Positions 6,308-29,057 of a stretch of 64,000 nucleotides of DNA are shown here, in pieces. The notes beneath the pieces were generated by a model that had not been told where the DNA came from, made no database searches, and worked only from the letters and a program-made list of their open reading frames with translations. Position numbers and translations under genes: made by a program. The stretch comes from Naegleria gruberi (Eukaryota), in NCBI GenBank assembly GCA_000004985.1, contig GG738910.1; one strand, 5' to 3'. Numbering within the stretch: the stretch's first letter is position 1; each line of letters opens with the position of its first letter.

Positions 6308-6584
6308 TCAATTCCAAAATTTTGTAACAACAATAAATCCTAATTATTAATTAAAATACGAGTAAACATGTTGTATCCATTAGAAGATAAAGTATTAATG
6401 TGAAGATAGAAAATCCAGCAGAGAGTATGTTTAATTTGGCTTTTTGTTGATTTTTATTCACCAATATCCAAAAAATAACCTATTCCCAAATACAATAACC
6501 CTCATTCTCTAAATGATTTTCGCCCAATAGTGATTCTTCATCTTAATATTTTTGAATGTGATTTTTTAACCAATTCTCAATAGT

Positions 6585-8665: not shown

Positions 8666-10633
8666 GATTCTGGAACATTACATAAAACTCAGAGACAACA
8701 TGGTGTTCTTCATAGATTATAATAAAAAGAGTAACAAATTGATTAGAGACAAATGGGTTTTAGAGTCAGGTAACTGTTTCACCAAATAAGAACCTGCTTT
8801 GATTAGATAAAAATCTTTATTAGCAATAAAATGTAAAAAACTTGCTAATAGACAATGCTAAAAGCAAGAAAAAACCAAATAAAGTGAAAAAATTAAATTA
8901 AAAAATAATATCCAAAAAGACACTAAGAGTGCTTAATAAATTGCCTCGCTTAATTAATTCACTTACTAAGAAATTAATTGGCGTATAAAAAAGGCTAAAA
9001 TATTTTAAAAACTAATATGGGAGGGATAAGGTGGGACCTATCATTTCTTGCTTAGGAAGTGTCATCTTGTGACAAATTTATTATTACAGGTTTTTTATAG
9101 AGGAGTTGTTCTATTTCAATCTCGATTTTGTAAACAACTATAATGTCAATGACTTTAAAAGCAGCATTTCTGAGCAACATACAGTGTTCTTATTGAAGTT
9201 TACTGAGATAAAGTAGTGTTTTTTGAAAACAACAATTGATTGAAAAATTTTACTCTATTTGTACTGAATATACCTCTTTTCTCATTCTCATTTTGATTCT
9301 TAAGTGTCAAGACGGTTGAGTAGGTTTTTTAATTCTTAACTTTTTGGTTTTTACCGATTTTTTTTTCCTACAAGAGTAGGTTTTTTTATATGAGTTGTTT
9401 TTTCAAAAAACAACTTGGTTTATTGGTAGAACGTATTACTTAAATTTGGTTTATTGAAAGTTTGTTAATAGAATAGGTAGAAGTTGTAGTGTGAACTTTA
9501 TATTCATTAGTTTATTTATTGCTGACTCTGATATTGCAAATCTGTCGATAATGTGGTTCTGAATTCTTTTTCTACCATACTTATCAATTCTGGTGATGAT
9601 TTCTAATCGCTTAAACCGCTTAGTTTGTCTGTAATTTTTCTCTGAGGGAATGTAGATTACTTTTGCAATTCTCGAGCCACATTCTATTTCCAAATTTTCC
9701 TTGCTATTTGAGCGAGGTTCGAAAGTTCCATATCTTTTTCTTATGTATGAGAGCGGCAGTTGAATTGGCCCTTCCTATTTCAAGATAGAGCTTTTGTGAT
9801 CTTGCTTCTGAAGAATTGAAGAATTGCCATCATTTCTTTCGAATCGATATGATCGTTGGTGTGAGATCTTCCTATAACAACAGTGTTTGAGGAGTGGACG
9901 CCATATCCTTGAGGAGAAGCATCTGAATTGACTATAATTGGGAAAGGTTGATTTAGATATAGGAGAGAACCTTTTGAGTTTGAACTGATCTACAGTTTTT
10001 TGCACCTTAAAACAATTTAATTATTAACAATAATGTAGATTTAGAAAAGAAGACATTGTTAATGAATTCGTCAACAATCATAAAGATAAAACAAAGAATT
10101 GGAATGATTTTATCTCAATTTCATCAACGAGAAAGGAGTTTCTTAAGATGTATATTGTGTCACTGGTATTGTTATTGCTTATCTTGATTGTTTTCAGCCA
10201 GCAAGAGTAATGCTCAATCCAATTTATACATTTGCAGCAGAGAAAGTTTTATGATGATGACGGGAAGGAAGTTGTTACCTCTCCGATGTTCTTGAGTTAA
10301 GACCTGTTTGGAAAGCTCTTCAACAATGGAGAAAAATTCTGACTTTTCAAAATTTAATAAGTTACTTGGATTCTATGTATCCTCACAAGATCTTGAAGTT
10401 TAATTGATTTGGAGAATAATGTTCGAACTATTCAAAGCAACAACACCCAACAACACTAACAATCAAAGTATGAATGTACAACAAGAAATAATGTTTAAAT
10501 CAACTCCTTTCTGTCAATGTAAATGTATTTACTAACCAAAGCAATGTCAATTTAAAACAATGATTGAGGTAATTTAATCATTTAGGAAGTTTAAGATGAT
10601 CTGAAAAATTATCTTTACTCGAAAATTTGTAAT

Positions 10634-12637
10634 TTACAATTCGTCATGTTGAGCATCAGCAGTGTTTGCTCCTTCAGCACCTGGTTGAGCACCACCTTGG
10701 GATTGGTAGAACTTGGTCATGATTGGCTTAATTTGTTCTTCCAATCTCTTTCTTTCTTCTTCAAATTCTTCCTTGGTAGCGTCTTGGTGTTGTTCTAACC
10801 AAGAAATAGACTTCTTGGTTTCTTCTTCGATAACCTTCTTATCTTCAGCTGGGAGTTTATCCTTGAACTTTTCATCATCCAATTGATTCTTCAATTGATA
10901 AGCATAACCTTCAAGAGCGTTTCTAGCGTCAATTCTTTCCTTTTGCTTTTTGTCTTCTTCTTCAAACTTGGCAGCTTCATTGACCATTCTTTCGATATCA
11001 TCCTTATCCATATTGAGCTTGTCGTTGGTAATAGTAATACTATTTTCAACATTGGCCTTAGAATCCTTAGCGGAAACATGAAGAATACCATCAGCATCAA
11101 CTGAGAAGGTAACTTCAATTTGTGGAACACCTCTTGGTGCTGGTGGGATACCAGTCAATTCGAATTTACCCAACAAATTGTTATCCTTAGTCATGGCACG
11201 TTCACCTTGATAAACTTGAATCAAAACTCCAGGTTGGTTATCTTGATAAGTGGAGAAAATTTGTGACTTTTGAGTTGGAATCTTAGTACCTCTTGGAATC
11301 AATTTGGTCATGACACCTCCGACAGTTTCAATACCCAATGAGAGGGAAGCAATATCAACCAAGACAATGTCTTCGTCCAATTCACCACCCAAAATACCAG
11401 CTTGAATAGCAGCACCAGCTGCAACAGCTTCATCAGGATTAATTCCTTGCTTTGGCTTCTTACCATTGAAGAAGTCAACCAACAATTGTTGAACCTTTGG
11501 AATACGAGTAGAACCACCAACAAGGACAATTTCTTGAACATCTTCCTTAGAAAGTTTGGAATCTCTCAAAACTTGTTCGACTGGCTTCAAAGTCTTGACA
11601 AACAAATCGTTGTTCAATTGTTCAAACTTGGCACGAGTCAATTTAGTGGAGAAATCAATACCATCATGGAGGGATTCAATTTCAACTCTAGCTTCATGTT
11701 GTGATGACAAAACTCTCTTGGCCTTTTCAGCTTCTCTCTTGAACTTTTGGATAGCCTTCTTGTCCTTTTCGACAGAAGCAGCAACCTTTGGATTCTTTCT
11801 CTTAAATTCATCCAAGAAGAATCTAACAACTCTGTGATCAAAATCTTCACCACCCAAGTGGGTATCACCATTGGTAGCCAAGACTTCAAAGAGACCTTCA
11901 TCCAAATTCAACAAACTGACATCAAAAGTACCACCACCCAAGTCAAAAACGAGAACATTGACATCTTTCTTATTCTTATCCAATCCGTAAGCAATAGCAG
12001 CGGCTGTTGGTTCGTTGATAATACGTTCAACACTAAGACCAGCAATAGTACCAGCATCTCTGGTTGCTTGTCTTTGAGCATCGTTGAAGTAAGCTGGAAC
12101 AGTAATAACAGCTCTGGAAACCTTTTGTCCCAAATATGTTTCAGCAATAGCCTTCATCTTTTGGAGAACCATAGCAGAAATTTCTTCTGGTGCAAAAATC
12201 TTCTTTTCACCAGCAATTTCAACTTGAATATATGGTTTACCATTCTTATCGACAATCTTGTATGGCAACAAAGCAGCATCCTTTTGAACTTCGACATCGG
12301 AGAACTTACGACCAATAAGTCTCTTAGCATCATAGACAGTGTTTGTTGGATTAATAGTAGCTTGATTCTTGGCAGCTTCACCGATGAGTCTTTCACCATC
12401 TTCAGAGAAGGCAACAACAGAAGGAGTAATACGATTACCTTGGTCATTTACTATAATTTCAGCCTTTCCGTTTTTATAAATAGCAACACAGGAATATGTG
12501 GTACCCAAATCGATACCAATGATTGGACCTCCAGACTTCTTATCAGTCTTTGTGGCATTCTCTTCAGAGAAAACAAATGTAGCCACAAAGCAGATTAAAA
12601 GAAGAGCTAACAAAGCCTTCGATGTATACTTGGACAT
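10634..12637 (-). CDS. bip: ER lumenal Hsp70 chaperone BiP/GRP78 (Kar2-like), single exon, signal peptide, C-terminal HDEL
   Basis: Real ATG; N-terminal signal peptide [18 protein letters not shown]. Hsp70 signatures seen: [34 protein letters not shown]. Ends ...AQHDEL. Strong optimal-codon bias. The opposite-strand ORFs inside it (for example 11747..12598) are antisense artefacts. Confidence 0.95.
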
Positions 12638-12913
12638 GTTGAGTTATTTTTTTTTGCTTTGATGATTCTGCAAATTTGAGTGGAATTTATTTGTGGGCTT
12701 ACAACAATTCCGAACACGTGTTCCTTGGGTGGGTAACTTCCGGAAGTAAGTAATAATTTCTCTCTTTTGGGTTGGATAACAGAGAAACACGAAAACAATT
12801 TGAAAAGTCAAAATGAATTTCTTACTCTGTATGTTGTCCACTCCATACCTAAATTTTAAAAACTCTACAGTTGTTTTTTAATTTAAATATTTAATATAAT
12901 TTATAAAAAGAAC

Positions 12914-14078
12914 ATGAAGGTTAAGGCTCTGTAAGTTTTGCGAACAGTTAAATTTTTATAGCTTTTTCAGGATTCTCGTTGGTGGCTATGGAACAAGACT
13001 TCGTCCACTTACTTTCTCAACTGCCAAGCCTCTTATTCACTTTGCAAATAAGCCAATAGTTGTTCATCAAATTGAAGCATTGAAGAAGGCAGGATGTACA
13101 GAGATTGTTCTTGCTGTAAATTATAAGCCACAAGAAATGATTGATGCTATGAAGAAGTATGAAGAAAAGTATCAAGTTAAGATTACATATTCCGTGGAAA
13201 ATGAACCATTAGGTACAGCTGGACCTTTGGCCCTTGCCAGGGATATTCTTGTTGCTGATGAGAATGAATACTTCTTTGTTTTAAATTCTGATGTTATTTG
13301 TGAATATTCGTTTGATGAACTGTTGGATTATCATAAGTATCATGGAAAGGAAGGAACCATTATGGTAACTAAAGTTGATGATCCTAGTAAATATGGTGTA
13401 GTTGTTACACAAGATGGAAAACAAGGTGAAATAGAAAAATTTGTTGAGAAACCAAAGACTTTTGTTGGTGACAGAATCAACGCTGGTATTTATGTGTTTA
13501 GTACAAAAGTGTTAGAAAGAATTGAATTGAGACCAACCAGTATTGAAAGAGAAATCTTTCCATTTATGGCCAGGGATAATGAATTATATGCAATGGATTT
13601 AAATGGCTTCTGGATGGATATTGGTCAACCAAAGGACTATATTACTGGTATGTGTTTGTATTTGTCTAGTGACAAACACAAGACAGAAAACAATCAACAA
13701 TTTGCTAAGAATCCAGAAGATGGTTCTTACCAAATAATCAATGAATCCTCAGTTCTGGTTGGAGAAAATGTTAAAATTGGAAAAGGAGCAATGATTGGAC
13801 CTAACGTAGTGCTTGGTGATAATGTCATTATAGAAGAAGGAGCCAGAGTTACTAGGTCAACAATTTTTGAATCAGCTTGGGTTAAACAACACGCTCTTGT
13901 TAAATCATCTATTATTGGCTGGAAGAGTTCTGTTGGTAAATGGTCAAGAGTGACAAATAACACAGTTCTAGGAGAAGACACACATGTCGACAATGAGATA
14001 TTTGTCAACGAGATCAAGGTGTTGCCTCACAAGACAATAAGTAGTGATGTGCTTGAACCAGGTCAAATAATAATGTAA
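12914..14078 (+). CDS. gmpp: mannose-1-phosphate guanylyltransferase (GDP-mannose pyrophosphorylase); join(12914..12930,12971..14078), 40-nt intron GTAAGT..TTTTTCAG after codon 6
   Basis: Track ORF 13080.. lacks the N-terminus. Exon 1 ATGAAGGTTAAGGCTCT spliced to G ATT CTC GTT GGT GGC gives MKVKALILVGGYGTRLRPLT (the canonical G-x-G-T-R-L N-terminus). Further matches: DIGQPKDYITG, left-handed beta-helix C-terminus, ends IIM like Psa1. Confidence 0.9.
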
Positions 14079-14886: not shown

Positions 14887-15894
14887 ATGCAAATAAAAAT
14901 GTCGGAATTACGTGTTCAACCTCTCGTTCTCACCGATCAGGATGTTGTTTTAGTAACAGGAGGAACCGGTCTCTTTGGTAAAGCCGTTGAACATGTTGTC
15001 AAACAAGATAATTTGCCAGGAAGTTGGGTTTTCTTAGGATCTAAGGATGGTGATTTACGTGATTTGAGTGCTTGTAAAGCACTTTTTGAAAAATACAAAC
15101 CAACCTATGTTTTACATTTGGCTGCTTTTGTTGGAGGTCTTTTCAAGAATATGAATTTTAAAGTCAGTTTCTGGCTCGACAATGTGAATATGAATAATAA
15201 TATTCTCTCATGTTGTTATGAATATGGAGTTAAAAAGACCATCTCTTGTTTATCTACTTGTGTCTTTCCGGACAAGATTGAATATCCAATTACTGAAGAT
15301 AAACTCCATGTAGGTCCACCACACTTTTCCAATGATGCCTATGCCTATGCCAAGAGAATGTTGGACATGTTGAGTGTTTGGTATAACGAACAAGCTGTTC
15401 GTGAAGGAAAGGAAAGCAGATTCTCAAGTGTTATCCCAACTAATCTCTATGGACCACACGATAATTTCAATGTTGAAAATGGTCACGTTTTGCCAGGTTT
15501 AATGCACAAGTGTTACAAGGCCCAAAAGGGAGGTTCCGATTTTATTGTTTATGGTTCTGGTAAGCCATTGAGACAATTCTTATTTTCACATGATGCTGCT
15601 CGTATGTTGTTGTGGACCATGTTGAATTATCAATCACAAGAACCAATCATGTTGTGTGTGAGTGAGGAAGATGAAAAGAGTATTGGACAAGTTGCTCAAA
15701 GTATCAAGGATGCTTTCAATTTTTCTGGAAATATGATTTTCGATACATCAAAGGCTGATGGTCAATTTAAGAAGACTGCCAGCAATGCCAAGATGTTACG
15801 TTTGAATCCAACCTTTAAATACACTCCATTTGATGAAGCCATCAAGACAACTGTACAATGGTTCTTGGATAATTATGAAACTGCTAGAAAATAA
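14887..15894 (+). CDS. ger: GDP-L-fucose synthase (GDP-4-keto-6-deoxymannose 3,5-epimerase/4-reductase; GER/FX/TSTA3-like), single exon
   Basis: Rossmann N-terminus VLVTGGTGLFGKAV; catalytic YAYAKRM (Y-x-x-x-K). SDR-extended fold of ~335 aa, typical of FX proteins. Confidence 0.9.
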   Translation: MQIKMSELRVQPLVLTDQDVVLVTGGTGLFGKAVEHVVKQDNLPGSWVFLGSKDGDLRDLSACKALFEKYKPTYVLHLAAFVGGLFKNMNFKVSFWLDNVNMNNNILSCCYEYGVKKTISCLSTCVFPDKIEYPITEDKLHVGPPHFSNDAYAYAKRMLDMLSVWYNEQAVREGKESRFSSVIPTNLYGPHDNFNVENGHVLPGLMHKCYKAQKGGSDFIVYGSGKPLRQFLFSHDAARMLLWTMLNYQSQEPIMLCVSEEDEKSIGQVAQSIKDAFNFSGNMIFDTSKADGQFKKTASNAKMLRLNPTFKYTPFDEAIKTTVQWFLDNYETARK

Positions 15895-16441: not shown

Positions 16442-18199
16442 ATGAATCAACATTCATCTCATCTTTCATTCTTATTAAACGACTTGAGGGTCGCTGTGCT
16501 TAGTTTCCAGCCAAAATTTTTGTGCAAAAAAATGAACCTGCAATCATTTTCACTTTCCCCTACGCCAAAATTACGTTTTTTAACCAAAGCAGCTGTGATA
16601 GTATTTGTGATGGTGGCCTTTTTGTTGTGGAGAACTAAAAAAGACAGGTTCTCTAATAATATTCTTATTAAGGAAGATGAGACCAATCAAGCAAAACAAA
16701 CAATAGAACAACAAGTTGCAAAACTAACAACGGAACAAAAACTCAAGAAACAAGCACAACATTCTGACGATACAAAAATTTATCACCAAATTGCTGATCT
16801 TTTAACAAGACCAAGTGGTGTTGGTTCTTACGACTGGTATAAGCAACAACTTGAAAAATACAATTCAATCGGTAATACAACATTTAAGGATTCATATGTT
16901 TCAAGAATAGGATTTAAAAATGAAGAAATAACTTCGCCTAATTGGTTTCATTACTTCAGAACTTACAAGGTCAAAGAAGTATGCTCAAAACAGCATTCAT
17001 GTGAGATACTTCCATTCTCTTCAGCTCAAAGCGAACTCTCAAGAGGAGTAAAATTGGATGCAATCATCTATCATGATAAGTACAGTGAAGGAATTCTCGT
17101 GTCTGGACCTAAAGACATACCAGAACAAGTTAGTGTCAAAAAATTCCAAGAAACAATCAAATCATATGGTTTTTTAAATTCTGTTGAAGAAATATCAAAC
17201 AAGATTGATTCAGAGCTCGGGGAAACTCTTTGGAGAATGTTAAGAAGATTAACATTTTACATGAATGGGGAATCTGTTGTTAGAAACATTATTTCTGGAT
17301 ATTTGCAAACAAAAGATGATCCAGCATCAATGGAAAGATTTTCAAGCACTTCAATAGATGTTTCAGTTTGTTTTTTTAGAAGTTGTACTTTATTCAACAA
17401 TTATCTTTATTACCCAATTAATTTGCTATCGCCAAAGTTTGCCAAAAACACACAAACAAAACCTGGTTTGTGTGCTTTTATTTCAAATTGTGTAGCAGAA
17501 TCTCATGCAACTCAAAGATTACAAATCTTGGAACAACTTTCAACATACCTTCCTGTAAGACAATATGGAAAATGTGGTAGAAATGCATATGAAACTAACG
17601 GAGGTAAGATGTTCGAACTTGAACATAATTGCAAGATTTACTTTGCCATGGAAAACTCAGTAGTTCCAGATTATATTACTGAAAAATTATATGAAGGCTT
17701 CAAATCTATGGAGAATGGCGGAAGATTATTGATGGTTTACAAAGGTCCACCAAATATTGCTGATTTCAAATATCCAAAATCTGCATTCATCAATGTGGAT
17801 GATTTCTCCTCAATTGATGAGTTGGGACAATATTTGAAAAAGTTGAACGAAAATGAAGATGAATTCAATAAGAGATTTGCTGAACTAGAAAGAGACAGAG
17901 TCCAAATCAATCATGCAATTAAGATGATGAGACCAAGTCTTTCAAATTTCATCCCTTGCAGAATGTGTAAAATTGTTGGACAAACTAAATTAGCTAGATA
18001 CCTATTGTTCAAAATCGGATTACAAGTACAAAAGAAAAAACTCAACTATAGGGAATGGGATGAATTCAAGAAGCAATTCGATTATATAGGGCCAGAGAGG
18101 ATGGCAATCCTTGATTCTATTTATCTCAGAGCTTATGCAAATCAATTCCACTCAGAAAATATAAACACTGATATCAATGACGATGAAGTTTGGAAATAA
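16442..18199 (+). CDS. GT10 alpha-1,3/4-fucosyltransferase paralog A (type II membrane protein, long stem)
   Basis: Real ATG. TM segment AAVIVFVMVAFLLW near the N-terminus. Seen: C-terminal GT10 motif CKIYFAMENSVVPDYITEKLYEGF (the FucT 'alpha1,3 motif'), upstream CAFISNC and C-terminal CRMC cysteines. Confidence 0.85.
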   Translation: MNQHSSHLSFLLNDLRVAVLSFQPKFLCKKMNLQSFSLSPTPKLRFLTKAAVIVFVMVAFLLWRTKKDRFSNNILIKEDETNQAKQTIEQQVAKLTTEQKLKKQAQHSDDTKIYHQIADLLTRPSGVGSYDWYKQQLEKYNSIGNTTFKDSYVSRIGFKNEEITSPNWFHYFRTYKVKEVCSKQHSCEILPFSSAQSELSRGVKLDAIIYHDKYSEGILVSGPKDIPEQVSVKKFQETIKSYGFLNSVEEISNKIDSELGETLWRMLRRLTFYMNGESVVRNIISGYLQTKDDPASMERFSSTSIDVSVCFFRSCTLFNNYLYYPINLLSPKFAKNTQTKPGLCAFISNCVAESHATQRLQILEQLSTYLPVRQYGKCGRNAYETNGGKMFELEHNCKIYFAMENSVVPDYITEKLYEGFKSMENGGRLLMVYKGPPNIADFKYPKSAFINVDDFSSIDELGQYLKKLNENEDEFNKRFAELERDRVQINHAIKMMRPSLSNFIPCRMCKIVGQTKLARYLLFKIGLQVQKKKLNYREWDEFKKQFDYIGPERMAILDSIYLRAYANQFHSENINTDINDDEVWK

Positions 18200-19145
18200 A
18201 AACTAAAATTCTGTATCAACTGTTAAAAACGCTGTATATGCCTTCGAATATGAATTTACTGCAATTGGTTATGCATCGAATTAGAAGCAATTCTCACATG
18301 ACTGATAATGTTTATTCGTAATGAATGATTCAGATCAATAAATCTTGCTGACGATTATTCAATAATAACCGTATACTGGTATACTACCTTCGGTGTCAAT
18401 AATATGGTATTCAGTTAGTGCAAGGCCAAATTGATAGAAAAATTCACATAACTGGAGGATACAAAATCAGCAATCCAACCAGAATTCAAATAAACCAATT
18501 TTCTTCATACTTGGAAAGAGTCTCGATTGGATATTGATAATTTGCTTCTTACCATTTCGATCATGGGATTTCGCTACACCAAAAAACTGAACCGAAGGTC
18601 CTTCACATTTAAGTGGTGATAACTCTATCATTAATTCGGTAAGTTGTCGATCTATTCGAATTACCATTGTTTTCTAGTTCTGTATCTGAGGAAATTAATT
18701 GCATAGGGAAACTGTGAAAATATTTTTAAGCAAAGTAATCCATATTCTGGTAGAAGTACTTGTTTTCAACTAGGTATCAATTATTCAGGTCTGAGAGTGG
18801 TTGGAGCCTGATATAGTCATGATGATATTCCCATTAACTTTCTGTGTTATTATTGAAGAGATGTATGTTGAAAGAGAAACAAGTTTTATAAGTTAATTAA
18901 TCATGAATACTTAAGTAATTGAGAGGAATGTGTACAACGGTCGATTCGGAATTTGTTGTTGACTATTAATCGTCCTATTGATCTTCTTTAATAATGATGA
19001 TCATCGAGGAAGCTGTTATTAACATTGGCTTTTCATAAGTTGAAAGATAAGATCGGAGGTTCAGCATGCAACGTTAATGCTGTTAAGCTATCACATGGCT
19101 AAAGTAAATATTCTACGGAATCTCGTTATTTAAAAAACAATAAAA

Positions 19146-20312
19146 ATGTCTGAACCAACTGCTATTGATATTACTCAAATTCCACCTCAAATTCATCATA
19201 CAAAAGTGGCCTTAATTTCTGGTGTAACTGGACAGGACGGTTCTTACCTCGCAGAATTGCTCTTGGAAAAGGGATACACCGTTTACGGTATTATTAGACG
19301 TTCATCATCATTCAATACCGGTAGAGTTGAACACTTGTGTAAGGACATGCACGTTCTTTCTTCCAGTATGTTATTTAAATTCATGATTAATACTAAAATT
19401 TAGATAGGATTCAAGCTTGTTTATGGTGATTTGACTGATACTGGGAATCTTATTTCCATAATATCAAAGATTAAGCCTGATGAAATTTATAATCTCGGTG
19501 CTCAATCTCATGTTAAAGTCAGCTTTGAGATGCCTGAATACACTGCTAATGTTGATGCTGTTGGTACATTGAGAATGTTGGAAGCTATTCGTGCTTGTGG
19601 ATTAGAAAAGAAGACAAGATTTTATCAAGCTAGTACTTCTGAATTGTATGGTTTGGTTCAAGAAATCCCCCAAAAAGAAACCACTCCTTTCTATCCTCGT
19701 TCTCCTTATGCTTGTGCAAAGTTGTATAGTTACTGGATTGTCATTAATTATAGAGAAGCTTACAACATGTTTGCTTTGAACGGAATTCTTTTCAATCACG
19801 AAAGTATTAGAAGAGGACCAACATTTGTAACCAGAAAGATCACTATGGCTGTTGCTCGTATTCATCTTGGATTGCAAGATTGTTTGTATTTGGGTAATTT
19901 GGATGCTGAAAGAGATTGGGGGCATGCCAAGGATTATGTTAAAGCTATGTGGTTGATGCTTCAACAAGAAAAGCCAGCCGATTACTGTGTTGCCACTGGT
20001 GAGAAACACAAGGTTAGAGAATTTGTTGAAAAATCTTTTGCTGTTCTCGGAAGGAGGGTTGAATGGAAAGGAACACCAGGTACAGTTGATGAATACGGAG
20101 AAGTGGACGGTATTGTTAGAGTTAAAGTAGATCCTAGTTATTTCAGACCAACCGAAGTTGAACTCTTGATTGGTGATCCAACAAAGGCAGAAACTGAATT
20201 AGGATGGAACAGAAATGTTGGTTTTGATGAATTGGTGAAGGGAATGGTAGAAGGAGATGTTGAACTTTTACAAAAGGATGATGTTGAACTTGTTAAGAAG
20301 CAGTATCACTAA
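19146..20312 (+). CDS. gmd: GDP-mannose 4,6-dehydratase; join(19146..19365,19408..20312), 42-nt intron GTATGT..ATAG
   Basis: Track ORFs 19146..19403 and 19431..20312 are in the same frame, separated by a TAG inside a GTATGT...AG segment. Splicing gives ...[31 protein letters not shown] blocks seen: [62 protein letters not shown]. Confidence 0.93.
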
Positions 20313-20630
20313 TAAATGAAATTCCCTTTATAAATCCTGGAACCTTCTTGCTGCTTCAAGAACATCTTGTAAAAATGGTTTTTGCACGTTATGAATTCTA
20401 ATAGTTGGAATCTTAAAACTTTGATCACAATGATATCATGTTCAGTTGAACTATTAGTGAAACTATCACTACCTGAATTATAAATATAATAATTGTTGAT
20501 TGTTATTGACTTTTCTTTATTCAACAAACAATTTCCGTTCTCTATGTTGTTCTTCTCTGGGTTTTATATTAAATAGGAACAATTTAATAAATTTATTCAA
20601 TCACGACAATTAAGATTTATTTTTTAAAAA

Positions 20631-22109
20631 ATGACCATCAAAATGAGGAAGGCAATCATATCAATTCTTTGCTATTTATTGTCTTCATTTCTGTTGTATT
20701 ATTTGTTTTCTGTGAGGAGAGAGACTGCGCCTGTTAAAACCACGTTACTTAAACCATTAGATTCTACTCCAATCTTCGAATTAACAAACCCTTCCCATAT
20801 GGAAAATTCTTTTATGTGGTATTTAAGGCAAATTAAGGACCAGAAAATAGGACATGAACCTCTCTTAGAACCAATTAATTTTGCTTTTGATAGCATAAAA
20901 CTTAATGATAAGAAATGGTTTCACTTTTTTTATGATGAAGATAACAACACAAAGCAATGTAAAGTTAAAGGGTGTAAACTATTTTCCATTGATGCATCAA
21001 TAATCTCTAAAAGATTAGATGCAATAATCTACAATGTTTATATGGCCAATGGTCCAGAAATATCGAAAAAATTGTTCGAAAAATCGACAGGTAATGGAAA
21101 GAATGCCTTGCTTTCTTTAAAGAAAGTGTACAAGCAATTGAATTCAACTGCTATGGATAAGGAATTTGCAAACACTATATGGAAAGAAATGGCTCCTTTG
21201 AAAATTGTTTTTAGTTATGAACAATATACTGTAGGGGTTGTCAATCAACATATTGATTATATAGATATAAGTGGATGCAGCCATAGAAATTGTTCTATCT
21301 TTTGTGGATATAATTTTAACACAATCCAACTTGATGAAAAGGTGATAGGGACTAAAAAGAGCACGCATAATTCATTGTGTTCATTTATTTCAAATTGTGA
21401 TGTAATTGATGCAGCCCGAAGAATTCAAGATGTACTAAAGTTATCCACTTTTGTTAATGGAAGACATTATGGACAATGTGGAAAGAATGTTGCTGAAGAT
21501 TCCAGAGGAAAATTATATGAATTAGAGCATAATTGTAAATTTTATACTGCTTTTGAGAATACTAGAAAGGAAGATTATGTAACTGAGAAGTTTTTTGAAG
21601 GAATTAAGGCAATAGAGAATGGAGCAAAGGTATTGATGATTTATGATGGGGCTACAAATGTTGAAAGTTTCGGATTTCCAAAAGATGTTTTCATTAATAG
21701 AAACGACTTTAGCTCGGTGGATGAATTGGGAAAATATTTAAAGTCACTGAGTGAAGATGAATTATTATTCAACCAAACTTTTCTGAGGGCTTTTTCAAAA
21801 CAGAATATACCAATCATCGAAAAAGTCTTTAATTATCATTATTTGAAAAGAACCGACACAACAGTATGTAGAATGTGTACATCTATTGCAGAGGTGAAAC
21901 TCGCTAGGTACCTTCTTTACAAATGTGGATTGTTTGAGAAGGCTACATGGGGTGAATTTCGAGAGAGAATGAAAGTATTGCTTAGTAATGAGTCAAATAG
22001 ACTTTCTATTCTTGACTCAATGTTTGAAATTGCTTATGGAAGAGTGTTCAAGAAAAATTTGTCTGAAACAAATTGGAATGACTATAGCTATAACTATAAC
22101 ACACCTTAA
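20631..22109 (+). CDS. GT10 alpha-1,3/4-fucosyltransferase paralog B (type II membrane protein)
   Basis: Real ATG. TM IISILCYLLSSFLLYYLF. GT10 motif CKFYTAFENTRKEDYVTEKFFEGI, CSFISNC, C-terminal CRMC. Roughly 45% identical to paralog A across the catalytic domain. Confidence 0.85.
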   Translation: MTIKMRKAIISILCYLLSSFLLYYLFSVRRETAPVKTTLLKPLDSTPIFELTNPSHMENSFMWYLRQIKDQKIGHEPLLEPINFAFDSIKLNDKKWFHFFYDEDNNTKQCKVKGCKLFSIDASIISKRLDAIIYNVYMANGPEISKKLFEKSTGNGKNALLSLKKVYKQLNSTAMDKEFANTIWKEMAPLKIVFSYEQYTVGVVNQHIDYIDISGCSHRNCSIFCGYNFNTIQLDEKVIGTKKSTHNSLCSFISNCDVIDAARRIQDVLKLSTFVNGRHYGQCGKNVAEDSRGKLYELEHNCKFYTAFENTRKEDYVTEKFFEGIKAIENGAKVLMIYDGATNVESFGFPKDVFINRNDFSSVDELGKYLKSLSEDELLFNQTFLRAFSKQNIPIIEKVFNYHYLKRTDTTVCRMCTSIAEVKLARYLLYKCGLFEKATWGEFRERMKVLLSNESNRLSILDSMFEIAYGRVFKKNLSETNWNDYSYNYNTP

Positions 22110-22687: not shown

Positions 22688-25431
22688 TTACTTCAAATAC
22701 TTAGCTGAAAACATTAATTCATCTAAAACTAAACCATTATATGGTAAGGCATCACCACATGATGCACAAGATGAGAATGTATCGTCTGCAGTTGCTAATG
22801 TATATGATTCTCCGTATTTTTGCTCCATTCCAACCATGCCATTAATCTTCTTTTGAATTTGGGTAGATGTTAATTCTGTATCATTTGCATTAGTGTGGGT
22901 TGTTTCAGAACTTGCTTTTGAGTTTCCATTCTCTATAACACCCACATGTAATGTAATAGCGCTAATAGTATTATGAATTTCATGGTGTTTGAAAAGAAGA
23001 ATACTAGGTTGAGAACCTCTGTCATAACATCCAAATAACATATTTTCCTTACATGGAGAGAATGAATATTTGTGGTCCATAAAGATGCTGCTCTTTTCGT
23101 TGACCTTATTCATTTCTCTCATTCTAATTTCAGCGGTAGACTTGGCATCAACAGAGGAGCTTTGTTGAATTGAACGTACAAACTCCTGCACACTGATGAA
23201 AGAATATTGTAAAACATTAGGACAAGATAGTCTTTCCAATGAGCAGGTATAAGGGAATCGTTGCAAATTATGCTCATCTCCATTATTACAAAATCCCTCT
23301 CCCCAAACTATTGCAAGGAATGCCTTTTCCAATGAGGCATGACTCGTTCTGAATGAAGATATTGATGGATGATCACCAATACCTAATAGTTTTGGTAATT
23401 TTGGTTGTTGATAATTGTTGTCCTTTGAAATTGTCATATAGGTACCATAGATATTATTCTTTTCGGTAGAGTAGCAAATAATAATGAAAATATCAGGAAC
23501 TGGTAAATCTTCAATAGTAGGGATCAAGGCATGAATAGTCAATTTCTTCATAGACTCAAAACTGACTAAATTCTTGTTCGGTACTACTACTCTCTCTGCT
23601 AGTTTTAACTCGAGTGATTTTTCACCCTTTTGAATTTCATAATGGTGCACAGTTAGAGCTTGAGAAATTCTATCCTTACTTGCAACAATAATGGTATTTG
23701 CAAAAGCAGAAAATGATAGTAATTGAGATTCATTCGAGTCGACCTTTAAATTCTTATCCAAAATGAGTTCCCAATTATCAGAAACTTGAACCAATTTGAA
23801 GAAACTAACTATACCCGAATCAAAAAGTATTGCTAATCTGAATGACTTTAAATTATTTTTTAAACCTGTCATATCAACAACAGAGTTTCTATCCAATAAA
23901 ATCTCGTTACCGTTGCTACCTTTCAATTTTAAAGGTGGTGAGATCTTATGAGAGTTATAATCGTATATAGAATAAAAAATATTGTTGGCTTTTTCGTAGA
24001 CAATCAAAATGGTGTTGAGAGAATCAATGTTAATAATCTTTGGTGATTTTGCTTCTTCTGTACTTGGAATAGGTTCATTCCTACCATAATTAGAATATTT
24101 TGAAACAAATATCTCCATTTGTATTGGGTCAATATTACTGCTGAATCTTAAAACACCTTTCTTGGAAGGTTTCTTTGAGTATACCTCTAATGCCCTCCAA
24201 ATTTCATGCTGATCAGAGGGCTCCCAAAGGAATTTGGATTCTTCCAAATTATTGAATCTGCCATAGTTAATTTCTTGAGCTTCTTCTAAAAAGTGGGTTG
24301 GGGTTTTTTTGAAGTTTTTGGCTGCGTAATCATTTAACAATGGCTGGTTTAAATACTTAAAGCGAGAATATGGATCTTTCTTTGAAAATAGCCAACCATA
24401 TTCCTGGTTTGTTGGATCTTTAAAAACTTCTGTTGGGTCACGAGCGGATATATAAGTATAAGGCCAGTTTGGCCACTTATTCTCTAAACATTTTCTTGAG
24501 AAAGATTTTGTTCCACCACTTGTTCCACTTTCGTCCAGGATAAACTCTACGTTTAGATGTAATTTATCATTCCTAGAGTTAAATAACTGATACATTTCAT
24601 CAACAAGAATAATCCATTCATTATCTGGTTCCTTACAAGGATTTTTCATTGTTCCTACTACATATGTTCCGGTTCCTGCATTAGAATTGAACATAATTTT
24701 TTGGTACTTTAGACAAAGTGCAACATAAATTCTATCGGAACTATCAGGAAACCTATTTCTAATATCTGTTAATGTTTCAATTAAATCTATATAATCAAAA
24801 TATCCCATTCCGTTATCAGGTCCTCCAATCTTCGGTGGATCATGGGTTAAGAGAAGACAGCGATTACCATTATAAACTCCAGAGAGATCCCTTATACTTC
24901 TCTTACATAATTTACCATATGATTTGATAAAGTGGTCATAATCAATGTGGTAATAAATATCAACTTTAAAGTGTCTAACACCTTTTTGATATCCTTGAAT
25001 CCATTGTCTTAAATCATTCCATGAATGCACTTGATAGGAAATTGTAGGAGTAATCTTATTTTCAAAACTATGTGTGTCGTCAATTAATAATTCTCCATGC
25101 TCGTTCAATTCTCCAAAGCCTGGTCTATCAATCTTTGGATGGTGAGACAACAATAGGGAAGTCATCGTTAAACACATTAAAAAGACAAAAATCACAACAC
25201 TATAAAGAATTGCTTTCCGTATTGTTAACCCTGTTGTTGCCTTTTTCTTCACATTTTCTTCATCTATTAATGCACTGCTAGAGGTTGTGGTTGTATACTC
25301 ACTAACAGATACATCATTGCTCACTCTCCGATGAAATGTATATTGTTGATCAACATGCTGTATTGAATAACAGTCATCTATTTAATCGGAGGATGAATGT
25401 TATTAAAAATAAAGAATTTCCACTTACTCAT
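22688..25431 (-). CDS. type II membrane lumenal protein (897 aa model) with N-terminal PLC-like phosphodiesterase (PI-PLC X-box-like) region; tentative model complement(join(22688..25377,25428..25431)) with 4-nt first exon ATGA
   Basis: The long ORF begins at GTG with no in-frame ATG before the upstream stop. 50 nt upstream lies ATGA|GTAAGT...AAATAG|AT, which joins in frame (MNDCYSIQH...). TM VVIFVFLMCLTMTSLLL. HSWNDLRQW...RHFKVDIYYH resembles the H/H catalytic core of PLC-like phosphodiesterases. The C-terminal 400 aa are unassigned. Confidence 0.45.
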
Positions 25432-27053: not shown

Positions 27054-27190
27054 CAATATTAATCCTCATACTGTTATGGATGTTGTGAAATAGGAAGAAG
27101 GAGCCAATAGAGGATGTATTAAAATTAATTTACTTTACAACGTTAAAAGTGTGGTCCAAAGATGCTCTTGTCAGCAATCATCAGAAAAAA

Positions 27191-29057
27191 ATGTCAGGGG
27201 AACACCAAGCTCTGTCTCCAACGTCATCAGACTCTTCTGTGCCCACAATACAAATTCTACCACAAAAGGTATCATCACTACAAGATGACGATATGGATTT
27301 TAGCATTCGTACTCATCACTCTCTCAACACACCATTAACTTCTCCTAATTCTCCTTCCATGTCCTCTACCATTTCAACTCCTTCCTCAGAACCCTATCAT
27401 CCCAGCCTCATTCTCCAATCAGAACTTCCTCTCTCTCATATTAAAGTGGTGAGGAATCGTGAGGAAATTCTCTCTCCTTGTGTTTCTGCTGGCAGACATC
27501 ATCATCACATACCAGGTTCAGCATCATCTCTTGGTGGAGGAAGCACATTTGGTTCATCAACATCATTGAATGGCTTGTTAGACAATGAAGATTCTAGTCC
27601 CACAGATATCATGTCCTATAATGTGCCTCCACCAACCATTGTACCTCCATCAACATTCATAGAACCAATAACAAAGAGTGGAGTAGTGCCATGTGGTAGT
27701 GTTGATGATAATAATAATACTGACGACCATCATACAACAACATCCCTCGAAGCAGCTGCTGAAGAACTTCTTCATACGTTGGAAACTTCAAATAATCCCA
27801 AGTCATTAGAGGCTGCCATAACAACATTCATTGAACAGGAGACCACTAGAAGAAGATCTACTGTTGATAAGGAGGATATTGCAATACTACAGGAAATTGC
27901 TGCAGCCTCTTCTCAATTGGCTTCTAATACAACAACAACGGAAGAAAAAATTGAAACTCTTTCCGAAGTAGTACCAAGAAGGCTAACCATTACTTCATCA
28001 TCTGAAGAAATTAATAGAAATGAGGAGGTAAACAATAACTACAATACACTATCATTAGAAGCTTCATCAACAAATAATAACAAACCATTTAGATTCATGC
28101 AAAAAAGACCATCCTTTATTAATCCAGAATTGATGAGTATGCTCTTTTCTTCGTTATTATCCCTTCAGGATTTAAAACCGAGTGATAATCAGGTGGCTGG
28201 ACATGGACAAAAGGACGGAGAAGAACATTTAGTGGTTCGTCACTTGAGAGACAAAATTTACAAGCCAATTAATACAAAATCGAAACGTGCTTTTGATGAA
28301 GTCAAATTCTATGAACAACAGGCTCCAAAAATACCACTTTTAGAGCCTTTTCTGCCCAAATATCATGGTGTTCAGACAGTGAAGGAGAATGACCAACAAT
28401 TTTTGGTTTTGGAGGATTTAACTGCACCTTTCACAAATCCGAGCTTGTTGGATATTAGAATGGGAAGGAGAGTTTATGGAGATGATGCCAGTTTGGAAAA
28501 GATTAAAATGTTTGAAGAAAAGTACATTTATCAAAAAGAGTTAGGTTTTGGCTTTAGTAAGTATTATTGATTGATTTTTGATATTAATTTACAACATCCT
28601 AAAAGGTGGCATGAAGGTTTACAATACTGATCCAGAATTTTCTAAAATCAACAAGAGCAAGCACATAACACACAAAGATCAAAAGTATAAAGTCTATGAT
28701 AGATATTGGGGAAGACTATGTAAACCTGGAGAAGAGTCCACTGAGGCACTGGATGCCTTTTTCTTTGATACTTCATATGTAGATAGCGAAGTTGTAGGTA
28801 TCAAGACAGTGAAAAGTATATTGAGTCAATTGAAACAATTGGAAGAGTTATTCAAAACTCATCAATTGATTTTTAGAGTTTACTCGAGTTCACTATTCCT
28901 AGTTTTTGATGCAGATAAAGCAATAGTGAGGATGATTGATTTTGCTCACGTTCACGAAAACAAAGAACCATCAATTGATGAAAATTATCTGTATGGTTTG
29001 TCTAATCTGATTAACTATATTGAGGAGGTATTAAGGCGAAAAGACGCTAGTCTTTGA
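27191..29057 (+). CDS. inositol polyphosphate kinase (IPK family, Kcs1/IP6K-like); join(27191..28556,28606..29057), 49-nt intron GTAAGT..AAAAG
   Basis: PxxxDxKxG motif (PSLLDIRMGRRVYGDD); splice restores LGFGFS|GMKVY; C-terminal SSLLFVFD...IDFAHV (IPK SSLL and IDFAH motifs). Track ORF 27149 starts at GTG; the first ATG is 27191. Confidence 0.8.

What the first reader, a model, noticed from the sequence alone, without database searches (positions are those of the whole stretch)
16442..22109. Two divergent GT10 fucosyltransferase paralogs bracket the GMD gene
Paralog A (585 aa) and B (492 aa) share the GT10 catalytic motifs, CxFISNC and C-terminal CRMC cysteines, but are only about 45% identical. 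Their stem regions differ greatly in length. This points to an old tandem duplication with subfunctionalisation, for example different acceptors such as core alpha-1,3 versus Lewis-type. The producer gene GMD sits exactly between them.
Basis: partly seen in the sequence, partly recalled or inferred. Interest (0 to 1): 0.5.

Follow-up and report, generated by a model that had tools for sequence, protein, structure and literature searches.

The report
Naegleria fucose supply-and-transfer gene cluster
In the amoeba Naegleria gruberi, two distantly related fucose-attaching enzymes flank a gene that helps make their sugar donor; they belong to a five-gene block holding the whole donor pathway, an unusual but not revolutionary layout for a eukaryote.

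Summary
The window is Naegleria gruberi nuclear DNA. ORFs 16442-18199 (A, 585 aa) and 20631-22109 (B, 492 aa) are both GT10 fucosyltransferases, and a two-exon GDP-mannose 4,6-dehydratase (GMD) gene lies between them. Corrections: A and B are 33% identical overall and about 47% only in the donor-binding half.

A is not B's nearest relative. A groups with three other N. gruberi paralogs (bootstrap 100) and B falls outside that group. Neither protein has the Lewis-type acceptor motif or the POFUT3/4 motif.

The finding is part of something larger. GDP-mannose pyrophosphorylase and GDP-fucose synthase lie directly upstream on the same strand. Five consecutive genes (12.9-22.1 kb) therefore cover Man-1-P to GDP-fucose plus two transferases.

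In N. fowleri, N. lovaniensis and Willaertia, GMD sits in a different, mutually conserved neighbourhood with no fucose genes within 10 kb. N. gruberi has three GMD and two FX copies, so the cluster appears to be built from lineage-specific duplicates.

All pathway genes are eukaryote-type, so transfer from bacteria or viruses is unlikely. Acceptor specificity and co-regulation remain untested. Verdict: new members of a known enzyme family in an unreported, lineage-specific cluster; moderate interest.

The parts
12914..14078 (+). GDP-mannose pyrophosphorylase (GMPPB-type). Exon 1 is 12914-12930, the intron is 12931-12970, and exon 2 is 12971-14078 (374 aa).
   Evidence: Pfam NTP_transferase E 2.7e-42 plus the GMPPB C-terminal domain E 1.8e-27. 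The splice model is an exact match to EFC38171, 'mannose-1-phosphate guanylyltransferase'. The best solved relatives are a 'Mannose-1-phosphate guanylyltransferase 1' (7x8j) and a GMPP beta chain (7d72), E 1e-133 to 1e-125.
14899..15894 (+). GDP-L-fucose synthase (FX/GER/TSTA3 type), 331 aa. The ORF opens at 14887, but the public model starts at 14899.
   Evidence: Pfam Epimerase E 3.9e-42. Exact match to EFC38172. Best PDB hit is GDP-L-fucose synthetase 6aqy at E 3e-199; I believe this is the N. fowleri enzyme, but the tool output does not name the organism. Next are a group of GDP-L-fucose synthases (4bkp and others; human, from memory) at about 1e-114, well ahead of the 1bsv group (E. coli, from memory) at about 3e-38.
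16442..18199 (+). GT10 fucosyltransferase paralog A (585-aa ORF; the public model starts at 16532 and is 555 aa). It is a type II membrane protein with a TM at about residues 47-65, a stem of about 55 aa, and a catalytic region from residue 121 to about 570.
   Evidence: PF00852 E 4.9e-30. 100% match to N. gruberi P0001, which UniRef names 'Fucosyltransferase'. PDB best hit is AtFUT11 9s6a at E 3e-12, with CRLC aligned to CRMC. Hydropathy peak at 44-62. Residues matching the AtFUT11 donor site: S348, N349, R359, R380, K389, N405, E414, K415. Candidate catalytic base: E277.
18200..19145 (.). 946-bp spacer between A and GMD, the longest intergenic gap in the cluster. Nothing was detected in it.
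   Evidence: No ORF longer than 66 aa, no Rfam family, no notable repeats.
19146..20312 (+). GDP-mannose 4,6-dehydratase copy 1 (374 aa). Exons are 19146-19365 and 19408-20312, with a 42-nt intron.
   Evidence: Pfam GDP_Man_Dehyd E 7e-126 for exon 2. Exact match to EFC38174. 82% identical to N. lovaniensis GMD and 78% to Willaertia GMD. Best PDB hit is N. fowleri GMD 5uzh at E 1e-206. The intron position is shared with the other heteroloboseans.
20631..22109 (+). GT10 fucosyltransferase paralog B (492 aa). It is a type II membrane protein with a TM at about residues 8-27, a short stem, and a catalytic region from residue 51 to about 487. The public gene model (318 aa) covers only residues 175-492.
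   Evidence: PF00852 E 6.3e-24. P0020 is 100% identical over 65% of the ORF. The AlphaFold2 model has mean pLDDT 86.1 and pTM 0.82. The top 18 Foldseek PDB hits are all GT10 enzymes: AtFUT11, FUT9, mango FUT13 and H. pylori FucT. E197, S254, N255, R264, E309, N310, Y316, E319, K320, C413 and C416 sit in columns that are 83-100% conserved across 64 GT10 sequences.

Best explanation
A and B are two anciently diverged members of a heterolobosean-centred subfamily of GT10 GDP-fucose-dependent, inverting, GT-B-fold fucosyltransferases.

Each has the layout of a type II membrane protein: a short cytosolic tail, one transmembrane helix, a stem, and a disulfide-rich lumenal catalytic region, as in Golgi glycosyltransferases.

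Inferred mechanism, by analogy with AtFUT11, FUT9 and H. pylori FucT: the C-terminal Rossmann domain binds GDP-beta-L-fucose through the S-N-C...R and F-E-N...Y-x-T-E-K motifs. Arg and Lys stand in for a metal ion at the pyrophosphate. A conserved Glu in the N-terminal half (A E277, B E197) deprotonates an acceptor hydroxyl, giving an alpha-linked fucose. The acceptor is unknown. My best guess is O-3 of a GlcNAc in an N-glycan or other glycan.

The two genes belong to a five-gene, same-strand block: GMPP - FX - FucT A - GMD - FucT B (12.9-22.1 kb). This block encodes every cytosolic step from mannose-1-phosphate to GDP-fucose plus two users of the product.

The block is specific to the N. gruberi lineage. 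It appears to have been assembled from extra copies of GMD and FX placed next to GT10 genes, the same way plant and fungal metabolic clusters recruit duplicates of primary-metabolism genes.

Shown here: gene identities, residue conservation, fold, paralog relationships, and absence of the cluster around GMD in three relatives. Inferred: enzymatic activity, Golgi location, acceptor, and any selective or regulatory reason for the clustering.
For: GT10 identity:
- Pfam match for both proteins.
- A profile of the subfamily hits AtFUT11 at E 7e-23, FUT9 at 1e-19, mango FUT13 at 1e-13 and H. pylori FucT at 5e-5, and no other PDB family.
- B's model is high-confidence and its top 18 structural matches are all GT10.

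Catalytic competence:
- Across a 64-sequence GT10 alignment, the Glu column is E in 62/64, the Arg column is R in 64/64, FEN is 62-63/64, and Y...EK is 62-63/64. A and B carry all of them.
- These positions map onto AtFUT11 donor-site residues S218, N219, R226, R248, K256, N271, E280 and K281 from PMC12929593.
- Ten lumenal cysteines are shared, including an N-terminal pair and the CxxC. The literature describes the CxxC as essential for folding.

Topology: a single strong hydrophobic segment near each N-terminus.

Cluster:
- Gene identities.
- All five genes are on the + strand, and the flanking genes are unrelated (HMG-CoA reductase, BiP, an orphan protein, F-box, IPK and others).

Lineage specificity:
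- In N. lovaniensis (L004), N. fowleri (L006/L007, whose GMD is identical to P0294) and Willaertia magna (L005), GMD is followed by the same unnamed gene and a dCMP deaminase.
- No GT10, FX or GMPP is found by tblastn within 10 kb either side of GMD in those loci.

Duplicates: N. gruberi has three GMD copies that are 91-94% identical to each other but 86-89% identical to the other Naegleria species, and two FX copies that are 98% identical.

Vertical, eukaryotic origin:
- The nearest GMD relatives are heteroloboseans, and the intron position is shared.
- FX and GMPP score far better against the chains I take to be eukaryotic than against those I take to be bacterial (the organism assignments are from memory, since the tool lists molecule names only).
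- No viral relatives were found.

Background: lectin studies report alpha-L-fucosyl surface glycoconjugates in Naegleria, with differences between species (citing Cervantes-Sandoval 2010).
Against: - There is no experimental evidence for activity, location or acceptor.
- The Pfam N-terminal GT10 domain (PF17039) is not detected in A or B. HMMER does not align the acceptor half to any solved structure. The catalytic-base assignment therefore rests on a multiple alignment, not on a structural superposition I could inspect.
- No specific k-mer of 8 nt or longer is shared by at least 4 of the 5 upstream regions, so nothing in the sequence points to co-regulation.
- The clustering is not conserved. 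GT10 loci from Acrasis kona and two environmental relatives have no GMD or FX nearby.
- I could not see where FX, GMPP or any GT10 genes lie in the other Naegleria genomes.
- I could not see the rest of the N. gruberi scaffold. It carries a second GMD and a third GT10 gene, so the true extent and history of the arrangement is incomplete.
- Monophyly of the three N. gruberi GMD copies has weak bootstrap support (32-36%).
- Near-identical FX copies could be assembly haplotigs rather than true paralogs.
Confidence: 0.7

Rival explanations
1. Neutral co-location. The adjacency is a by-product of local segmental duplications in a genome that has expanded its fucose genes (at least 6 GT10, 3 GMD, 2 FX), with no functional coupling or co-regulation among the five genes.
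For: The gene families are multi-copy, and a second GMD plus a third GT10 gene lie elsewhere on the same scaffold. No shared upstream motif was found. The arrangement is not conserved in relatives.
Against: Five consecutive genes with no intruder cover one pathway in full, and all are on one strand. GMPP and FX are not homologous to GMD's neighbours, so simple tandem duplication cannot produce this set. My rough chance estimate is about 1e-11, even allowing for the copy numbers.
Confidence: 0.2
2. A and B arose by a single old tandem duplication at this spot and subfunctionalised into a core alpha-1,3 enzyme and a Lewis-type enzyme, with GMD as their long-standing neighbour.
For: A and B are adjacent apart from GMD. 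They are clearly homologous along the whole lumenal region. They differ most in the acceptor half and at motif II.
Against: A's closest relatives are three paralogs outside this window, and B lies outside that clade. Neither protein has the Lewis-type HH[R/W][D/E] motif. Both score best against the core-type enzyme. The GMD copy is a recent duplicate at 91-94% identity, whereas A and B share 33%.
Confidence: 0.12
3. One or both enzymes are protein O-fucosyltransferases that act on folded protein domains, like human FUT10/FUT11 (POFUT3/4), rather than glycan alpha-1,3-fucosyltransferases.
For: Like POFUT3/4, they lack the Lewis motif II. They also have helices C-terminal to the CxxC motif (B helices 411-431, 440-450, 455-470). 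The donor site is shared by all GT10 enzymes, so sequence cannot exclude this.
Against: The POFUT3/4 signature FYGTD is absent. The best sequence and structural matches are a glycan-acting core alpha-1,3 enzyme and FUT9. No POFUT3/4 structure was available for comparison. EMI domains, the known POFUT3/4 substrate, were neither sought nor seen here.
Confidence: 0.1
4. The block was acquired as a unit from a bacterium or a giant virus, since gmd-fcl-manC plus a fucosyltransferase is a common bacterial surface-polysaccharide layout.
For: The gene content resembles bacterial O-antigen or colanic-acid modules (my own knowledge). Two of 21 long metagenomic GT10 loci had gmd within 10 kb.
Against: GMD's nearest relatives are heteroloboseans at 78-82%, with a shared intron position. 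FX scores 1e-114 against the 4bkp group but 3e-38 against the 1bsv group (human and E. coli respectively, from memory). GMPP has the GMPPB C-terminal domain and an intron. GC content is the same as the rest of the window. No viral relatives were found.
Confidence: 0.02
5. Paralog B is a decaying or inactive copy. Its public gene model is truncated to 318 aa.
For: The database model covers only residues 175-492. B is the most divergent N. gruberi paralog.
Against: The 492-aa ORF is uninterrupted and aligns with A and other paralogs from residue 51. All conserved catalytic, donor-binding and cysteine positions are intact. The full-length model folds with pLDDT 86.
Confidence: 0.05

Closest known systems
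Plant/invertebrate core alpha-1,3-fucosyltransferases (Arabidopsis FUT11/FucTA, PDB 9s6a; Drosophila FucTA)
   Same: It is the best sequence hit in the PDB for A, for B and for the subfamily profile (E 3e-12, 1e-13, 7e-23), and the best structural hit for B. Shared features: the donor-site residues, a conserved Glu in the N-terminal half, a C-terminal CxxC aligned residue for residue, an N-terminal cysteine pair, and a type II membrane layout.
   Different: Identity is only about 27% over the aligned part. HMMER does not align the acceptor-binding N-terminal half. The Naegleria proteins have a family-specific helical stretch between the LDAIIY strand and the catalytic Glu (B helices 143-167 and 172-186). 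The AtFUT11 acceptor-contact residues (Y163, Y192, E197, H361) could not be mapped. Core alpha-1,3 activity is therefore a lead, not a result.
Vertebrate Lewis-type alpha-1,3/4-fucosyltransferases (FUT3-7, FUT9; PDB 8d0o)
   Same: Same GT10 family, fold and donor motifs. It is the second-best PDB hit (E 1e-19 for the profile).
   Different: Motif II [F/I/V]HH[R/W][E/D], which recognises lactosamine, is absent. A has IYHDK and B has IYNVY, while a FUT3-like sequence in the same alignment shows VHHW at that position. The Naegleria proteins also have the CxxC and C-terminal helices.
Human FUT10/FUT11 = POFUT3/POFUT4 (GT10 protein O-fucosyltransferases of EMI domains)
   Same: GT10 donor site, absence of the Lewis motif II, and extra C-terminal helices tied in by a cysteine (for POFUT3/4; for B).
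   Different: The FYGTD signature is absent. No structural comparison was possible. POFUT3/4 work in the ER on animal-specific domains.
Bacterial surface-polysaccharide gene modules (gmd-fcl-manC with a fucosyltransferase, e.g. colanic acid or O-antigen loci; H. pylori FucT, PDB 2nzw)
   Same: The same set of enzymatic functions sits side by side on one strand. H. pylori FucT is a detectable GT10 homologue (E 5e-5).
   Different: The Naegleria genes are eukaryote-type, two contain spliceosomal introns, and they are separated by 0.3-0.9 kb spacers. This is convergent organisation, not shared ancestry.
Plant and fungal metabolic gene clusters
   Same: Non-homologous genes for consecutive steps of one pathway are physically adjacent. 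Duplicated primary-metabolism genes have been recruited (three GMD and two FX copies). The distribution is lineage-specific.
   Different: The product is a common nucleotide sugar and glycan decoration, not a specialised small molecule. Co-expression, a usual criterion, is untested. I found no report of such a cluster in Heterolobosea in the paper library.

Membership tests
CAZy GT10 / Pfam PF00852 fucosyltransferases | Significant match to the GT10 C-terminal (donor) domain model, above the curated cut-off | tested here: met
   A scores 105 bits and B 85 bits against a cut-off of 23.9.
CAZy GT10 / Pfam PF00852 fucosyltransferases | GT-B fold whose closest structures are GT10 enzymes | tested here: met
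   B's model has pLDDT 86.1. Foldseek ranks 1-18 are AtFUT11, FUT9, mango FUT13 and H. pylori FucT. A's model was too poor to use (pLDDT 59.9).
CAZy GT10 / Pfam PF00852 fucosyltransferases | GDP-fucose binding residues (S-N...R; FEN; Y-x-T-E-K) and a conserved Glu in the N-terminal half as catalytic base | tested here: met
   A: S348, N349, R359, N405, Y411, E414, K415, E277. B: S254, N255, R264, N310, Y316, E319, K320, E197. These columns are 83-100% conserved across 64 sequences. The donor residues were mapped to AtFUT11. The base assignment is by alignment only.
CAZy GT10 / Pfam PF00852 fucosyltransferases | Transfer of fucose from GDP-fucose with inversion | not testable with these tools
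   Needs an enzyme assay.
CAZy GT10 / Pfam PF00852 fucosyltransferases | Pfam N-terminal GT10 domain (PF17039) | tested here: not met
   Not reported for A or B at E <= 0.01. It is present in several animal hits. This domain is absent from many GT10 proteins, so its absence does not exclude membership.
Lewis-type alpha-1,3/4-FUTs (FUT3-7, FUT9) | Acceptor motif II [F/I/V]HH[R/W][E/D] | tested here: not met
   A has IYHDK and B has IYNVY at the aligned position. The FUT3-like control shows VHHW.
POFUT3/POFUT4 (FUT10/FUT11) | FYGTD at the motif II position | tested here: not met
POFUT3/POFUT4 (FUT10/FUT11) | C-terminal helical extension linked by an extra disulfide; ER location; protein-domain acceptor | tested here: inconclusive
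   Three helices follow the CxxC in B's model, and the cysteines are conserved. No POFUT3/4 structure was available, and location and acceptor cannot be tested here.
Core alpha-1,3-fucosyltransferases (FucTA / plant FUT11-12) | C-terminal CxxC motif and closest similarity to characterised core enzymes | tested here: met
   CRMC aligns with CRLC of AtFUT11, which is the best PDB hit for A, B and the profile. The margin over FUT9 is small. Mango FUT13, described in the PDB only as a fucosyltransferase (I recall it as an alpha-1,4 enzyme), also shares the CxxC.
Core alpha-1,3-fucosyltransferases (FucTA / plant FUT11-12) | N-glycan core recognition residues of the N-terminal subdomain, and activity on GlcNAc-terminated N-glycans | not tested
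   The acceptor half could not be aligned to AtFUT11 by sequence. I had no access to model coordinates for a superposition.
Eukaryotic metabolic gene cluster | Three or more non-homologous genes of one pathway that are physically contiguous | tested here: met
   GMPP, FX, GT10, GMD and GT10 are consecutive on one strand with no intervening gene.
Eukaryotic metabolic gene cluster | Co-expression or shared regulation | tested here: inconclusive
   No k-mer of 8 nt or longer is shared by at least 4 of the 5 upstream regions. Expression data were not available.

The most novel reading that the evidence does not exclude
The five genes form a selected, co-regulated glycosylation cluster that arose recently in the N. 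gruberi lineage. On this reading, duplicated GMD and FX copies were recruited next to GT10 genes. The cluster would supply GDP-fucose on demand, for example during encystment or a change of surface coat, to two transferases whose acceptor sites match none of the three characterised GT10 classes and which may make a linkage not yet described in protists. It would be a rare example of a primary-metabolism-derived biosynthetic gene cluster outside plants and fungi, caught soon after assembly.
Probability: 0.3. Interest if true: 0.55.

Novelty: new member of a known kind. Interest (0 to 1): 0.38.

Why it matters
If the block works as a unit, it offers a compact eukaryotic case of metabolic gene-cluster birth by duplication and relocation. 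Close relatives (N. fowleri, N. lovaniensis, Willaertia) lack the arrangement around GMD and can serve as 'before' states.

It also points to an expanded fucosylation toolkit in non-pathogenic N. gruberi: at least 6 GT10, 3 GMD and 2 FX genes. That may underlie the published lectin-binding differences in fucose glycoconjugates between N. gruberi and the pathogen N. fowleri.

The two transferases are tractable targets for defining a GT10 acceptor class that is neither Lewis-type nor POFUT3/4-type.

On the practical side, the public model for paralog B is truncated by 174 residues and should be corrected.

Tried and rejected
- **Bacterial or viral origin:** rejected. The pathway genes are eukaryote-type with introns, and the viral contig scan found no relatives.
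- **Conservation near GT10 relatives:** the Acrasis kona locus and two environmental loci have no GMD or FX. The single metagenome scan returned only distant GT10 genes and no close relatives, so it said nothing about conservation of the cluster.
- **Signs of a mobile element, flanking repeats or an RNA gene around GMD:** none found.
- **Shared upstream motifs for co-regulation:** only AT-rich 7-mers, barely above the shuffled background.
- **Structure of A from a 5-sequence alignment:** too poor to use (pLDDT 59.9). B was then modelled with 64 sequences.
- **AFDB fold search:** the library was unavailable.
- **N. gruberi contig look-ups for A and P0003:** not on record. I therefore could not inspect the second GMD/GT10 locus on the same scaffold or the FX2/P0003 scaffold.
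- **Possible remnant of ancestral synteny:** I suspected window ORF 8144-8665 might match the LysM gene upstream of GMD in N. lovaniensis. The match is 15/47 residues at E 3e-4 in a single comparison, and I rejected it as insignificant.
- **Lower identity in the acceptor half as evidence for subfunctionalisation:** the same asymmetry occurs in all family pairs, so it is weak evidence.
- **Extending the cluster to the 878-aa convergent neighbour:** it has no Pfam or PDB homology.
- **AtFUT11 disulfide mapping:** I tried to map the published AtFUT11 disulfide pairs onto the alignment, but the numbering for one pair did not reconcile, so I make no claim about it.

Full report
**What the window is.** The window has about 33% GC throughout and no tRNA genes. 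Its genes have short GT..AG introns. Paralog A is 100% identical to a 'predicted protein [Naegleria gruberi]' on a 243,952-bp scaffold. My spliced models of the neighbouring genes are exact matches to N. gruberi proteins EFC38171, EFC38172 and EFC38174. This is therefore N. gruberi nuclear DNA.

**Checking the observation.** The two ORFs are at the stated coordinates: A at 16442-18199 (585 aa) and B at 20631-22109 (492 aa), both on the + strand.
- Both match the Pfam GT10 C-terminal domain far above threshold, at E 4.9e-30 and 6.3e-24.
- They align with each other over about 470 residues (E 2e-72).
- GMD lies between them as two exons, 19146-19365 and 19408-20312, with a 42-nt intron.

The identity figure needs correcting. 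It is 33% in BLASTP and 36-37% in a global alignment. It reaches 46-48% only in the donor-binding region, and is 24-29% in the N-terminal half.

The 93-aa length difference breaks down as 70 aa before the homologous region (120 aa in A, 50 aa in B) and 24 aa of net insertion in the acceptor domain. Thirty of A's extra residues lie upstream of the publicly annotated start at 16532.

**Are they real GT10 enzymes?**
- A profile of five subfamily members hits only GT10 structures in the PDB: Arabidopsis FUT11 (core alpha-1,3) at E 7e-23, human FUT9 at 1e-19, mango FUT13 at 1e-13, and H. pylori FucT at 5e-5. A and B individually give the same order.
- An AlphaFold2 model of B built from a 64-sequence alignment is confident (pLDDT 86.1, pTM 0.82). 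Its 18 best Foldseek matches in the PDB are all GT10 enzymes.
- A's model from a 5-sequence alignment was too weak to use.

The AtFUT11 structure paper lists donor-site residues S218, N219, R226, R248, K256, N271, E280 and K281, and the catalytic base E158. Using the HMMER and MAFFT alignments, the donor residues correspond as follows:
- A: S348, N349, R359, R380, K389, N405, E414, K415.
- B: S254, N255, R264, K285, K294, N310, E319, K320.

Across 64 GT10 sequences the Arg column is invariant, and the FEN and Y..EK columns are 62-63/64. A Glu in the N-terminal half (A E277, B E197) is present in 62/64, and I take it to be the catalytic base. That last assignment is by alignment only.

Both proteins share ten lumenal cysteines, including an N-terminal pair and the CxxC. 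The literature describes the CxxC as needed for folding.

Each protein has one strong hydrophobic segment near its N-terminus (A about 47-65, B about 8-27). This is the type II layout typical of Golgi glycosyltransferases. Location itself is inferred.

**Which kind of GT10?** The POFUT3/4 paper states that all Lewis-type alpha-1,3/4 enzymes carry motif II [F/I/V]HH[R/W][E/D] for lactosamine recognition, and that FUT10/11 carry FYGTD at that position. In my alignment a FUT3-like control shows VHHW at that position. A has IYHDK and B has IYNVY, and the other family members differ again.

Neither A nor B therefore passes the Lewis-type or POFUT3/4 test. The position varies among the Naegleria paralogs, which is compatible with different acceptors but does not show it.

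The closest characterised relative is the plant core alpha-1,3 enzyme, but only by a small margin over FUT9. The acceptor half could not be aligned to it. Core alpha-1,3 activity is a lead, not a finding.

**Relationship between A and B.** N. gruberi has at least six GT10 genes of this subfamily:
- A (P0001);
- B (P0020);
- P0002, P0003 and P0290, on other scaffolds;
- P0022, on the same scaffold but outside the window.

Pairwise identities are A-P0002 49%, A-P0022 43%, A-P0003 41% and A-B 33%. In an NJ tree, A groups with P0002, P0003 and P0022 at bootstrap 100. B lies outside that clade, in an unresolved position with two environmental sequences; the whole set of seven has 91% support.

A and B are therefore not each other's closest paralogs, and a simple tandem duplication at this site is not demonstrated.

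A profile search of 1.84 billion representative proteins found 7,574 GT10 relatives, but only 25 at E <= 1e-30. The named ones among these come from N. gruberi, Acrasis kona, a dictyostelid (Synstelium) and a choanoflagellate (Salpingoeca). The subfamily is therefore mainly but not exclusively heterolobosean.

**The larger picture: a five-gene block.** Two further genes lie directly upstream on the same strand:
- a GMPPB-type GDP-mannose pyrophosphorylase (12914-14078, one 40-nt intron);
- GDP-L-fucose synthase (14899-15894).

The order is GMPP - FX - FucT A - GMD - FucT B, with spacers of 0.3-0.9 kb and no intervening ORF, repeat or Rfam match. Together the genes encode every cytosolic step from mannose-1-phosphate to GDP-fucose plus two consumers.

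The surrounding genes are unrelated. They include HMG-CoA reductase, BiP, an orphan 878-aa membrane protein, an F-box protein, an inositol polyphosphate kinase, a DNA-dependent RNA polymerase (Pfam RNA_pol/RPOL_N, probably mitochondrial), a V-ATPase subunit and Arp2/3 p34. No GDP-fucose transporter was seen in the window.

**Is the block conserved?** No.
- I fetched GMD loci with 10-kb flanks from N. lovaniensis (L004), Willaertia magna (L005), and two assemblies (L006, L007) whose GMD is identical to N. fowleri's.
- In all of them GMD is followed by the same unnamed gene and a dCMP deaminase. In the two Naegleria species it is also preceded by a LysM gene and a DEAD helicase.
- tblastn finds no GT10, FX or GMPP in those flanks, and no other gene of the window is shared with them.
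- GT10 loci from Acrasis kona and two environmental relatives likewise lack GMD and FX.

N. gruberi carries three GMD genes. These are the window copy, a second on the same scaffold, and a third on a 938,756-bp scaffold. They are 91-94% identical to each other but 86-89% identical to N. fowleri and N. lovaniensis GMD. The third copy is the least diverged.

N. gruberi also carries two FX genes that are 98% identical. The second is on the scaffold that also carries GT10 P0003.

The most economical reading is that the cluster was built in the N. gruberi lineage from extra copies of pathway genes placed beside GT10 genes. Caveats:
- Monophyly of the three GMD copies has weak bootstrap support.
- The FX pair could be haplotigs.
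- I could not inspect the rest of the N. gruberi scaffolds.

**Origin.** The genes are vertically inherited eukaryotic genes.
- GMD's best hits are heteroloboseans, and the intron position is shared.
- FX scores about 1e-114 against one group of GDP-fucose synthases and about 3e-38 against another; from memory these are human TSTA3 and E. coli Fcl respectively, though the tool lists no organisms.
- GMPP has the GMPPB C-terminal domain.
- A viral-contig scan found nothing.

The resemblance to bacterial gmd-fcl-manC-fucosyltransferase modules is therefore convergent.

**Mechanism and confidence.** I am confident (about 0.95) that A and B are GT10 homologues with intact active sites. I am fairly confident (about 0.8) that both transfer fucose from GDP-fucose. 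I consider it an even bet that the clustering is functionally meaningful rather than a neutral by-product of duplications.

I found no shared upstream motif and had no expression data. The acceptor is unknown. A glycan GlcNAc O-3 is my best guess, and a protein acceptor cannot be excluded.

Lectin work cited in reviews reports alpha-L-fucosyl surface glycoconjugates in Naegleria that differ between species. This fits, but is not tied to these genes.

**Novelty.** The proteins are already in public databases, named 'Fucosyltransferase' by UniRef. Four full-text searches found no paper describing Naegleria GT10 enzymes, GDP-fucose synthesis in N. gruberi, or this cluster. The library is incomplete, so absence there is not proof.

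I rate this as new members of a known enzyme family, in a previously unremarked, lineage-specific pathway cluster. Interest is moderate.

Noticed in passing
window 20631-21152 (B residues 1-174): The public N. gruberi gene model for paralog B (P0020, 318 aa) starts at residue 175 of an uninterrupted 492-aa ORF. It lacks the membrane anchor and most of the acceptor half. The full ORF aligns with A and other paralogs from residue 51 and folds confidently, so the database model looks truncated.
   Followed up: yes
window 16442-16531: Paralog A's ORF opens 30 codons upstream of the publicly annotated start (M31). Which ATG is used cannot be decided from sequence. Either way, the membrane anchor follows.
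   Followed up: partly
outside the window, on the same 243,952-bp N. gruberi scaffold and on others: N. gruberi has three GMD genes (EFC38174 in the window; EFC38159 on the same scaffold; EFC48202 on a 938,756-bp scaffold). It also has two 98%-identical FX genes; the second, EFC38078, is on the 261,328-bp scaffold that also carries GT10 paralog P0003. A third GT10 gene (P0022, EFC38212) is on the window's scaffold. There may be further GMD/FX-GT10 pairings that I could not inspect.
   Followed up: partly
window 22688-25324 (- strand): An 878-aa ORF lies convergent with paralog B. It has a single N-terminal hydrophobic segment (about residues 39-60), giving a type II membrane layout. It has no Pfam or PDB sequence match, and this exact ORF sequence (from its GTG start) is not in the protein collection. 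An orphan beside the fucose block; function unknown.
   Followed up: partly
window 6308-10633: A 4.3-kb stretch between HMG-CoA reductase and BiP has no long ORF. Its largest ORF (8144-8665, 173 aa) has no Pfam match. From memory, part of its sequence (FLGILFDLENGKILIPEDKK) resembles the region after the polymerase core in retroelement reverse transcriptases. It might be a decayed mobile element next to the cluster.
   Followed up: no
window 12638-12913: BiP (ER Hsp70, 10634-12637, - strand) and GMPP (+ strand) are divergently oriented and share a 276-bp intergenic region, which could act as a bidirectional promoter.
   Followed up: no
window 19366-19407; L004 about 10229-10648; L005 about 10238-10296; L006 about 9600-10009: The single GMD intron sits at the same codon position in N. 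gruberi, N. lovaniensis, N. fowleri and Willaertia. Its length differs about ten-fold: 42 nt in N. gruberi, roughly 60 nt in Willaertia, and roughly 400 nt in N. lovaniensis and N. fowleri (estimated from tblastn segment ends).
   Followed up: partly
window 27149-29057: The inositol polyphosphate kinase domain is split across two adjacent same-strand ORFs (27149-28570 carries profile positions 1-52; 28578-29057 carries positions 56-190). This is presumably one gene with a very short intron or a frame change.
   Followed up: no
window 43706-45073: One 455-aa ORF combines several EGF-like repeats with a C-terminal class I methyltransferase domain. This is an unusual pairing and could be two genes read through by the mechanical ORF call.
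   Followed up: no
window 19602-20009 (- strand): A 135-aa antisense ORF lies inside GMD exon 2 and gives tblastn hits in the other species' GMD loci. This is most likely a by-product of strong conservation of the sense strand, not a gene.
   Followed up: partly
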